Shown piece after piece: positions 4,393 to 10,283 of a stretch of 20,238 bases of DNA. Numbering within the stretch: position 1 is the stretch's first letter; every line of letters starts with the position of its first letter. The position numbers and the translations under genes were made by a program. The notes beneath the pieces are model-generated. The model did not search any database, was not told the DNA's origin, and was given only the letters and a program-made list of their open reading frames with translations. This DNA is from Octopus sinensis (taxonomy: Eukaryota), in the NCBI RefSeq assembly GCF_006345805.1, contig NW_021824016.1, positions 1 through 20,238 of the forward strand, written 5' to 3'.

Positions 4393-4649
4393 AGACGAAT
4401 GAATGAATCGAAGCCCAGTATTTCCTTTTATAAGCCTGGTGTTTATTTCACCGGTATCTTTTGCTGAACTGCTAAGTTACGGGGGCGCAAACACCAGAAC
4501 CGGTTGTCAAGCGATACGACGGACTTCTTTCAGTCTCCGTCTATAAAATCCACTCAGAAGAGACTTGCCCAGGGTGCTACGCGGTGGGACTGAACACAGA
4601 ATCATGCGGTTGGGAAGCAAGCTTCTTACCACACAGCCACACCTGCGCC
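4393..4649 (-). mobile_element. tRNA-derived SINE family A, near full length with internal deletion
   Basis: Minus strand begins GGCGCAGGTG-TGGCTGTGTGG (A box, 4629-4639)...GTTCAGTCC (B box, 4587-4595). 4527-4640 matches 10146-10280 and 4431-4513 matches 19281-19362 within this window. Confidence 0.9.
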
Positions 4650-4769
4650 TATCCATTTACGAAATATGTTGAATCTAGGGGGGAAAATACCACTCATAAT
4701 TCCTGCAGTCTAAATAAAGCTGACATTCTATATATTGAGGCAGATTAAATCGATGCAAACTGCTTTCAA

Positions 4770-5243: not shown

Positions 5244-5667
5244 TCATTAGTCAAATGGTGGTAGTATAGGAAGAGGAGTCGGTTTAATAGTATATTGCTT
5301 CCCTTAAAACAATTAGGCTGTGGTAATGTCGAAAGCCCAAAATTAAAGACCCGGAGAAATCTTCTAAGGCAATAAGGTTCAGAATTGTGCAAGTGAAACT
5401 TCGTAAACATGAGATAAAATAAGAAAGTTTGTTTCAAGATAAAGTGAAATAAGTGTGGACTCTATTGCCAGGTTAACTAGATATTGTGTAAGGTTGAGAT
5501 ATCTGTGTGTGCGCACGTGTGTGTGAGTGTCTATGTGTGTATACACAGAGATATACACATACACATATAAGCATATGGACATATATACATGAATATATGT
5601 AATGTATGTATGCATATATATATGTGTGTGTATATATCTGTAAATATAATATGTGACAATTATTCGG

Positions 5668-5741
5668 TAGCCATGATAAAACTCCGAGTTTCGGACGCCG
5701 AGGTGGAAATCCACGCCGCCATCTCTTCAGTTATCCGGCTA
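5668..5741 (-). ncRNA. Minimal type I hammerhead ribozyme, core intact
   Basis: Minus strand: TAGCCG-GATAA [CTGAAGA] GATGGCGGCGTGG-ATTT-CCACCTCGGCGTCC [GAAA] CTC-G-GAG [TT] / TTATC-A-TGGCTA. Stem I 11 bp with one bulge, imperfect stem II, stem III with a 1-nt loop, GUU triplet; predicted cut between 5680 and 5679. Confidence 0.8.
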
Positions 5742-5774
5742 TCGGAAAAAATGCTATGAAAATCTTTTTTCCGA

Positions 5775-5848
5775 TGGCCGGATAACTGAAAAGATGGCGG
5801 CGTAGATTTCCACCTCTGCATCCGAAACTCGGAGTTTTATCATGGCTA
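5775..5848 (+). ncRNA. Mirror hammerhead copy with core substitution (CTGAAAA; G8 replaced by A at 5791)
   Basis: Reverse complement of 5668-5741 with 5 differences, one at the conserved G8 position; predicted inactive as encoded. Confidence 0.7.
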
Positions 5849-5947
5849 CCGAATAATTGTCACATATTAATTACATTTACAGATAAATTTCTCGACATAA
5901 TATTGAGGTCTCATTCATTCTTTTGTTATCTTACCATTTTTATCAAT

Positions 5948-5983
<36 letters not shown>

Positions 5984-6017
5984 ATATGTATATATATACA
6001 TGTGTATATACACACAC

Positions 6018-6240: not shown

Positions 6241-6562
6241 CCATAAACCAATAGTTGTCAGTCCGCTCAGAAACAATTCCCAGACCAACAATATTTAGGA
6301 AACAGCAAATGATATTTATTCTTCCCTTTATTCAGTTGTAGCAAACGAAATAACTTTATTAATTTCATTCTCTCACACCTGTCATTTACAGTGTGATTCC
6401 GAATTGATGAAACTGTCACCTCTTGTGAGGGTCACTATTTTAATATCATTGATGTTTATTTAGTACGACTTGTCCTTCCTAGATTGGACAGCTCGCTTGT
6501 AAACCAAGGAATGCGTATGCAGGGACGGCGATGGCCTGCGTTAGGGACAGGAGGTTGACTCT

Positions 6563-8285: not shown

Positions 8286-8469
8286 GAGATTAAAGAAAAA
8301 ATACGACGATTATTTTAGTGAAATATTTTCATTCATGTAAGTAGCCGTACTCGATTCTAGATTTTAAAATTATATTAATATATAATTTTAAAATCAAGAA
8401 TCGGGTATGGCTAGTCACATGAATGAAAGTACTTCACTAAAATAATCGTCGTATTTTTTTCTTAATCTC
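8286..8469. mobile_element. Fold-back element, 90-bp arms
   Basis: Arms 8286-8375 and 8380-8469, 4-nt spacer TAAT, 9 mismatches by ungapped manual alignment. Confidence 0.75.
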
Positions 8470-9890: not shown

Positions 9891-10283
9891 TTTTATCTTT
9901 CACTTGTTTTAATCAAGAAACAGCGACTATTCTATAGTAGAGCTTTGGAGGGTTTAGTCGACAAATCGACGCCAGTACTTATCCTATCATCCCCTTTGCA
10001 GAAATGTGGAAGTAAATAAACCAACACTCGTTATAAAGTGTTAGTGGGGCACAATTACAAATACGAAGATCCACAGACGTACATATATATATATATATTT
10101 GTATAATATAATGTATATTATATATTATAATATTGAAGTCGGTCTTTCTTCAGTTTCCGTCTACCATGTCTATCCAAAACTCTCGGGGCTACAGATTTAA
10201 AAGTTACCAAGAAGTCATACAGCGGGACTGAAACTGGAACTACGTGGTTGAGAAGCAAGCATCTTACCACAGAGACACTCGCA

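What the first reader, a model, noticed from the sequence alone, without database searches (positions are those of the whole stretch)
5635..5947. Head-to-head double hammerhead fold-back element
Seen: a 105-bp-arm inverted repeat whose arms each encode a type I hammerhead facing outward. The minus-strand copy (5668-5741) has all core nucleotides (CUGAAGA, GAAA, UH), an 11-bp stem I and a stem III with an unfoldable 1-nt loop. Known: minimal type I hammerheads with very short stem III occur in Penelope-like element pseudo-LTRs and retrozymes and cleave best as dimers; PLEs often leave inverted truncated pLTRs and some target microsatellites. Inference: a young, ORF-less PLE-derived unit of about 300 bp that may be a non-autonomous mobile family in its own right.
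Basis: partly seen in the sequence, partly recalled or inferred. Interest (0 to 1): 0.8.

Follow-up and report, generated by a model that had tools for sequence, protein, structure and literature searches.

The report
Fold-back stub of Hydra-clade Penelope retroelement
This hairpin with two back-to-back hammerhead ribozyme motifs is real, but it is the tail end of a common protein-coding jumping gene, likely inserted twice in opposite directions, and not a mobile family of its own.

Summary
The inverted repeat and both type I hammerhead motifs are real: the left core is intact, the right has G8→A. It is not an ORF-less family. The right arm plus tail is colinear with the hammerhead pseudo-LTR of an autonomous Hydra-clade Penelope-like element (PLE), upstream of the ORF and downstream of its stop.

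In 85 position-ordered loci, 57 carry an adjacent inverted arm, with 55 different junctions, so each fold-back was likely made anew at insertion. Of 49 classed pairs, 47 join a short-ended arm to a long-tailed arm (20 of 20 in a younger subfamily, arms up to 1.6 kb). Core bases are not significantly better conserved than the tail (p=0.17).

The architecture is in print (inverted truncated copy, one-sided tail, (TA)n target, same stem III), and this scan noted it in three other genomes. Two side results are worth keeping. Paired arms often stop at matching points, which suggests double priming on one RNA. The youngest, ORF-intact subfamily (1,397 exact 25-mer hits) has U4→C fixed in the ribozyme core, which suggests cleavage is dispensable.

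The parts
5635..5762 (-). Inverted, 5'-truncated PLE end; runs from about 83 nt upstream of the hammerhead cut site to the short 3' end (+45)
   Evidence: minus-strand sequence continues into the 3' UTR in longer copies and in contigs of four runs (loose ends at 5763)
5668..5741 (-). Type I hammerhead motif, core intact (CUGAAGA 5730-5724; predicted cut 5680|5679)
   Evidence: sequence; same layout as Hydra-PLE motifs in Craig 2021 File S2
5763..5764 (.). Inversion junction, 2-nt filler
   Evidence: junctions of other copies differ
5765..5947 (+). Direct, 5'-truncated PLE end; from about 71 nt upstream of the cut site to the long 3' end (+112)
   Evidence: whole stretch colinear with the pLTR upstream of the ORF in L123, L124, L126 (80-90%) and L229 (79%)
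5775..5848 (+). Type I hammerhead motif with G8→A at 5791 (predicted inactive); cut position 5836|5837
5885..5947 (+). One-sided tail between the two 3' ends; 5' UTR sequence that ends about 100 nt before the ORF's ATG in tandem copies
5580..5634 (.). TA/TG-rich microsatellite flank (left side of target)
   Evidence: sequence
5951..6010 (.). (TA)n flank (right side of target); no target-site duplication can be read

Best explanation
The element is a doubly truncated, head-to-head insertion of the hammerhead-bearing end of a Hydra-clade Penelope-like retrotransposon, likely made in one event when the element's RT-endonuclease cut both strands of a (TA)n tract and primed two cDNAs, one from each of its two start sites. 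Shown: identity with the pLTR of the autonomous element, variable junctions, short/long pairing of ends, both arms from the same source variant, then independent decay. Inferred: the two cDNAs were primed on opposite target strands (+45 and +112), stopped in or just past the U-rich stretch 5' of the ribozyme's stem I, and were joined end to end by microhomology or filler. Inferred: the copy is inert. The ribozymes are passengers, and any read-through RNA would form a duplex of about 115 bp rather than a hammerhead.
For: Colinearity with the ORF. Hydra motifs. 57 of 85 loci paired; 47 of 49 classed pairs short+long, 2 short+short, 0 long+long (binomial p=4e-12 against 50:50). Young subfamily: 20 of 20 classed pairs among 40 loci, arms up to 1.6 kb. 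55 distinct junctions among 57 pairs. Arms share source-diagnostic bases (34/35 at -31 and 31/32 at -40, against 59% and 70% expected) but differ 9.5% within versus 10.9% between loci elsewhere. Long arms that begin after the cut site, some covering only the tail (7 old, 3 young), and 27 of 51 old pairs where the short arm reaches more than 5 nt further 5', cannot be simple copies of the other arm. 66 of 142 arms stop at -95..-60. Two internal RT start sites, double-strand cutting and a predicted dimer are reported for another PLE (PMC11167929).
Against: No biochemical test here. 28 of 85 old and 16 of 40 young loci had no adjacent partner by my rule, and 8 old and 4 young pairs had an unclassed end. 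One long/long pair exists (L016). Samples were chosen by an exact 27-mer or 25-mer and come from two contigs. Overall rank correlation of arm lengths is not significant (rho 0.23, p=0.11 old; 0.006 young); only the excess of near-equal pairs is. Later deletion at the palindrome centre could mimic asymmetry. One junction occurs three times (4-nt microhomology), and the window's junction type resembles that of L206.
Confidence: 0.9

Rival explanations
1. Same origin, different mechanism: one cDNA primed at the long end folds back on itself and is copied to make the second arm, which is joined to the target at the short end.
For: Near-equal 5' stop points are in excess (old 21 of 51 within 12 nt vs 11.9 expected, p=0.001; young 11 of 25 within 25 nt vs 3.3, p=5e-5); short microhomologies at many junctions; arms share source variants.
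Against: The short arm reaches further 5' than the long arm in 27 of 51 old and 7 of 25 young pairs, and in the window itself by about 11 nt; some long arms hold only the tail. These need later deletion to fit.
Confidence: 0.25
2. The ~300-bp double hammerhead is a non-autonomous family that is itself transcribed and remobilised by the PLE protein.
For: 23 of 85 loci have both hammerheads complete; all 40 scored hits of the first search were fold-backs of similar size (biased by the query); one junction recurs three times.
Against: 55 distinct junctions of 57; continuous size range from tail-only to kilobases; no significant core conservation (4.2% vs 5.6%, p=0.17); summed contig depth over the window's junction is far below that over the arms in four runs (depth is not copy number); predicted duplex hides both ribozymes.
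Confidence: 0.04
3. A MITE or foldback DNA transposon whose inverted repeats happen to contain a hammerhead-like motif.
For: Short, ORF-less, long inverted repeat, AT-rich target.
Against: Repeat is not terminal (one-sided tail), centre varies, no target duplication, and the sequence is the end of an RT-encoding element.
Confidence: 0.01

Closest known systems
Hydra clade of EN+ Penelope-like elements (Craig et al. 2021, PMC8557442), nearest listed family Hydra-1_Obim
   Same: C-terminal GIY-YIG-type EN; RWK, DKT, CxCX5C, CxxC/CxH motifs; (TA)n target; hammerhead near the 3' end with an extra base after A9, 4-bp palindromic stem III with a 1-nt loop, and U at the cut site. Stem III actc-g-gagt is identical to that of Hydra-2_aMil and Penelope-16_HM.
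   Different: A separate family: about 61% protein identity to Hydra-1_Obim (137 of 224 residues, my hand count of L116 against the sequence printed). Different stems I and II; longer stem II; tail about 67 nt rather than 30-40; clear pLTRs, where Hydra-1_Obim is listed as having none.
Inverted 5'-truncated copy plus one-sided tail of PLE insertions (Craig 2021 Fig. 2; Penelope-13_HM; Cervera & De la Pena 2014, PMC4209133)
   Same: Inverted truncated copy next to the direct copy, tail at one end, two hammerheads 100-700 bp apart on opposite strands.
   Different: Nothing structural; the window is the shortest end of the size range. The counts of end pairing and matched stop points are my addition.
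PAc (Poseidon) in vitro mechanism (Frangieh et al. 2024, PMC11167929)
   Same: Two internal RT start sites that bound the tail, AT-rich target, both strands cut, hammerhead cleavage not needed for insertion.
   Different: PAc start sites lie inside the ORF; here both ends lie in the 5' UTR. The parts of that paper I read do not describe pairing of start sites in inverted insertions.
Non-LTR retrozymes (bioRxiv 10.64898/2026.07.22.740005)
   Same: ORF-less, PLE pLTR-related, type I hammerhead.
   Different: Retrozymes are same-strand tandem repeats; this is an opposite-strand pair with no fixed unit.

Membership tests
Hydra-clade PLE | Single ORF with RT and C-terminal GIY-YIG EN, linked to this sequence | tested here: met
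   717-codon open frames in L227, L228, L229 followed by the hammerhead end; broken ORFs of the window's own subfamily between the same ends. Pfam gave no hit for the protein, so domains are read from motifs.
Hydra-clade PLE | RWK motif, DKG changed to DKT | tested here: met
   RMRWKAFF and FSDKTKNL in the printed translations against section 11
Hydra-clade PLE | CxCX5C linker, no CCHH, CxxC and CxH around conserved E and N | tested here: met
   CSCRNKELC; CGLCDMER...LNTRTE...CPH; absence of CCHH judged by eye
Hydra-clade PLE | Canonical hammerhead in sense near the 3' end / pLTR | tested here: met
   the young subfamily departs at U4
Hydra-clade PLE | Insertion into (TA)n | tested here: met
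   3' flank of the direct arm: TA 54, CA 12, other 19 of 85
Hydra-clade PLE | Placement in the Hydra clade on an RT tree | not tested
   no reference set was loaded; only a hand comparison with one published protein
Type I hammerhead ribozyme | Core CUGANGA / GAAA / UH with three helices, open stem I | tested here: met
   left arm complete; right arm G8→A
Type I hammerhead ribozyme | Covariation or preferential conservation of core and stems | tested here: inconclusive
   core 25/595 vs tail 208/3704, p=0.17; inverted arms only, p=0.07. Source-level variants are mostly one-sided G-U/G-C or G-U/A-U changes, some breaking pairs; I noticed no two-sided change, and no formal pair count was run
Type I hammerhead ribozyme | Self-cleavage | not testable with these tools
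   only contigs were available; they cannot show RNA ends
Non-LTR retrozyme | Same-strand tandem units each with a hammerhead | tested here: not met
   opposite strands in the window; same-strand repeats seen at 3 of the first 30 loci's 26 places (L147/148, L154/155, L162)
Independent non-autonomous family | Fixed internal junction shared by copies | tested here: not met
   55 distinct junction tuples among 57 pairs
MITE | Terminal inverted repeats and target-site duplication | tested here: not met
   one-sided tail, variable centre, no readable duplication

The most novel reading that the evidence does not exclude
The insertions record the PLE mechanism in vivo. A dimeric RT-EN primes the two target strands from different start sites on the same RNA, giving near-strict short/long pairing and matched stop points. 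The most recently expanded, ORF-intact subfamily spread to well over a thousand arms with a U4→C ribozyme core, a natural experiment showing that efficient hammerhead cleavage is not needed for PLE spread.
Probability: 0.5. Interest if true: 0.5.

Novelty: new member of a known kind. Interest (0 to 1): 0.27.

Why it matters
The finding itself is ordinary: a truncated PLE insertion of a described shape, in a Hydra-clade family that I did not find among the families listed by Craig et al. Its value is as a dataset. How PLEs make inverted/tailed insertions and what their hammerheads do are open questions in the papers read. This family offers many countable insertions and two subfamilies that differ at a catalytic core base, which makes both questions directly testable. 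It also warns that such hairpins can be mistaken for MITEs, microRNA precursors (top Rfam hit mir-2513, below threshold) or retrozymes.

Tried and rejected
Rfam scan: only sub-threshold microRNA hairpin models among the 150 listed. False lead: the near-intact PLE ORF beside one copy (L061) belongs to a different element that inserted into an internal (TA)n of this family. Pfam: no hit for the family's protein. Cleaved RNA as template: 0 of 57 partner arms start within 3 nt of the cut site. Homogenisation of arms after insertion: little support, with 32 shared against 292 one-arm variants. Expression: no RNA holder listed; four runs guessed to be RNA hold contigs over the ORF and hammerhead, but contigs show neither strand, ends nor level, so this is not used. 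A transcription start at the -70 to -90 hotspot was considered; upstream pLTRs in L123, L124, L126, L229 start further 5', so it is not supported and not excluded. Literature: 6 searches turned up no listing that describes this family, end pairing counts or a U4C PLE hammerhead; most subscription papers and Repbase/Dfam are not searched, so this is weak. No hit by sequence in the scan's earlier findings.

Full report
OBSERVATION. The window is microsatellite-rich animal DNA from a 2.72-Gb assembly. An octopus-like host is my inference from composition and from the nearest published protein; no call names it. The inverted repeat is at 5647-5751 / 5765-5869, 105 nt, 95% complementary. Each arm reads outward as a type I hammerhead. 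The minus copy has CUGAAGA (5730-5724), a long interrupted stem II, GAAA, stem III ACUC-G-GAGU, U17 and an 11-bp stem I with one bulge; the cut is predicted at 5680|5679. The plus copy has G8→A. Rfam lists no hammerhead among the best 150 of 263 matches, and monomer folding is unremarkable.

THE FAMILY. The 313-nt query gave 3,479 candidates; the 40 scored were all similar fold-backs, as expected from the query. An exact 27-mer from the hammerhead has 1,148 hits, a lower bound. Walking 5' from the hammerhead through longer copies leads on the same strand through about 0.9 kb of low-complexity 3' UTR into an RT with a C-terminal endonuclease. Of 14 loci fetched at 10 kb, the window's right arm plus tail lies directly upstream of the ORF in L123-L126 (76-90%) and downstream of its stop in L128-L134 and L136; L127 holds only an inverted UTR piece and a tail upstream, and L135 none. 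L126 has the textbook form: inverted truncated copy, pLTR, ORF. The tail is 5' UTR sequence ending about 100 nt before the ATG. Contigs from four runs with four different organism labels match the arms and run on into the 3' UTR at 5763.

CLADE. The protein has RWK, DKT, YKDD, CxCX5C, no CCHH by eye, and CxxC and CxH around E and N, the features given for the Hydra clade (PMC8557442, section 11). That paper's supplement lists Hydra-1_Obim, about 61% identical over 224 residues by my hand count, and Hydra hammerheads of the same layout, including an identical stem III in two families. Penelope-13_HM there has an inverted truncated copy with a hammerhead on each strand. No tree was built.

IS THE FOLD-BACK A UNIT? 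I took the first 100 listed hits of the 27-mer, dropped second members of close pairs, four hits at the end of the list and one copy used as reference, leaving 85 loci. Of these, 57 have an adjacent inverted arm and 28 do not. Junctions range from +83 to -305 relative to the cut site, with 55 distinct tuples among 57; one recurs three times at a 4-nt microhomology. 23 of 85 have both hammerheads complete, because 66 of 142 arms stop at -95..-60, the U-rich stretch just 5' of stem I. So the double hammerhead is the commonest short product, not a fixed unit.

ENDS. There are two 3' ends, about +45 and +112. Among the 57 pairs, 47 are short+long, 2 short+short, 0 long+long and 8 unclassed. One long/long pair was seen in the first sample (L016). 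A protein search found a younger subfamily with open frames up to 717 codons. In 40 position-ordered loci of it, 24 have an adjacent pair: 20 short+long and 4 long+unclassed, with arms up to 1.6 kb. Paired arms stop at nearly the same point more often than shuffled pairs (old 21 of 51 within 12 nt, p=0.001, with the short class widened to +75; young 11 of 25 within 25 nt, p=5e-5, adding one widely spaced pair), although overall rank correlation is not significant. The 3' flank is TA in 54, CA in 12 and other in 19 of 85.

SELECTION AND AGE. In the window's subfamily the 5' core differs from column majority in 25 of 595 bases, the non-CpG tail in 208 of 3,704 (p=0.17), CpG sites in 120 of 1,239. 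In inverted arms alone the core trend is p=0.07. This fits mostly neutral decay after insertion. The two arms of a locus share source-diagnostic bases but otherwise differ almost as much as arms of different loci. Divergence is 5.9% against 3.5% for the young subfamily. The young subfamily's core reads C at position 4: 97 of the first 100 of 1,397 hits and 60 of 60 aligned arms. PMC3088659 says U4C considerably decreases activity in vitro yet still lets a viroid infect, so impaired rather than dead is the safe reading.

MECHANISM. PMC11167929 reports for another PLE that both target strands are cut at AT-rich DNA, that RT starts at two internal sites bounding the tail, that the protein is predicted to be a dimer, and that hammerhead mutants still insert. 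The simplest fit here is two cDNAs primed on opposite strands from the two sites and joined at their truncated ends. It resembles L1 twin priming (recalled, no call), except that both arms cover the same part of the RNA. Fold-back copying of one cDNA remains possible but does not explain tail-only arms or short arms that reach further 5'. The product is predicted inert: the ribozymes face away on opposite strands, and either read-through RNA folds into a duplex of about -190 to -200 kcal/mol.

WHAT WAS READ. PMC4209133: parts 1-2 of 4, which already report dual minimal hammerheads 100-700 bp apart on opposite strands. PMC8557442: passages, section 11, supplement rows and part 2; Fig. 2 legend states the tail is often at one end only. 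PMC11167929: parts 1-2 of 4. bioRxiv 10.64898/2026.07.22.740005: part 1 of 5, supplements not seen. PMC13282606 and PMC3088659: passages. The scan's notes show the same kind of insertion in three other genomes, seen after my reading was formed and not checked.

VERDICT. Real, PLE-derived, known architecture, probably unnamed family of a known clade. Interest 0.27; the pairing statistics and the U4C subfamily are the parts worth following.

Noticed in passing
L227-L278 (e.g. G000:C3:133909500-133916500): Younger subfamily of the same Hydra element with intact 717-codon frames, a 3' UTR of about 180 nt instead of about 920, and a hammerhead core with U4→C fixed (60 of 60 arms; 1,397 exact 25-mer hits).
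   Followed up: partly
L061:2605-6660 (G000:C1:74674000-74683999): A different, near-intact PLE (RT, CxxxxCxxC linker, GIY-YIG, one frameshift, its own minimal hammerhead near 6530; Neptune-like by recalled motifs) inserted into an internal (TA)n of this family's 3' UTR.
   Followed up: partly
L230:4500-6800 (oriented; G000:C3:152803500-152810600): A repeat of about 477 nt period carrying a CTGATGA...GAAA hammerhead-like core, three copies on each strand: a possible tandem retrozyme in an inverted array.
   Followed up: no
L123:3680 (oriented): An older variant of the hammerhead has C at the cut site and a different stem II; a similar stem II shows up as loose ends in three runs.
   Followed up: no
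L145, L149, L151, L156, L159: Short ends at +41 run into (CA)n rather than (TA)n, matching the last bases of the element: the short end seems to use either microsatellite by microhomology.
   Followed up: partly
L243: Two copies of the same inverted unit (same stop points) about 1.3 kb apart; local duplication or assembly artefact.
   Followed up: no
window 8313-8447: Another long AT-rich hairpin (about 60-bp arms) that draws weak microRNA-model hits; possibly a MITE.
   Followed up: no
window 4420-4650 and 9950-10280: Two diverged copies of a SINE-like repeat also seen next to many fetched loci.
   Followed up: no
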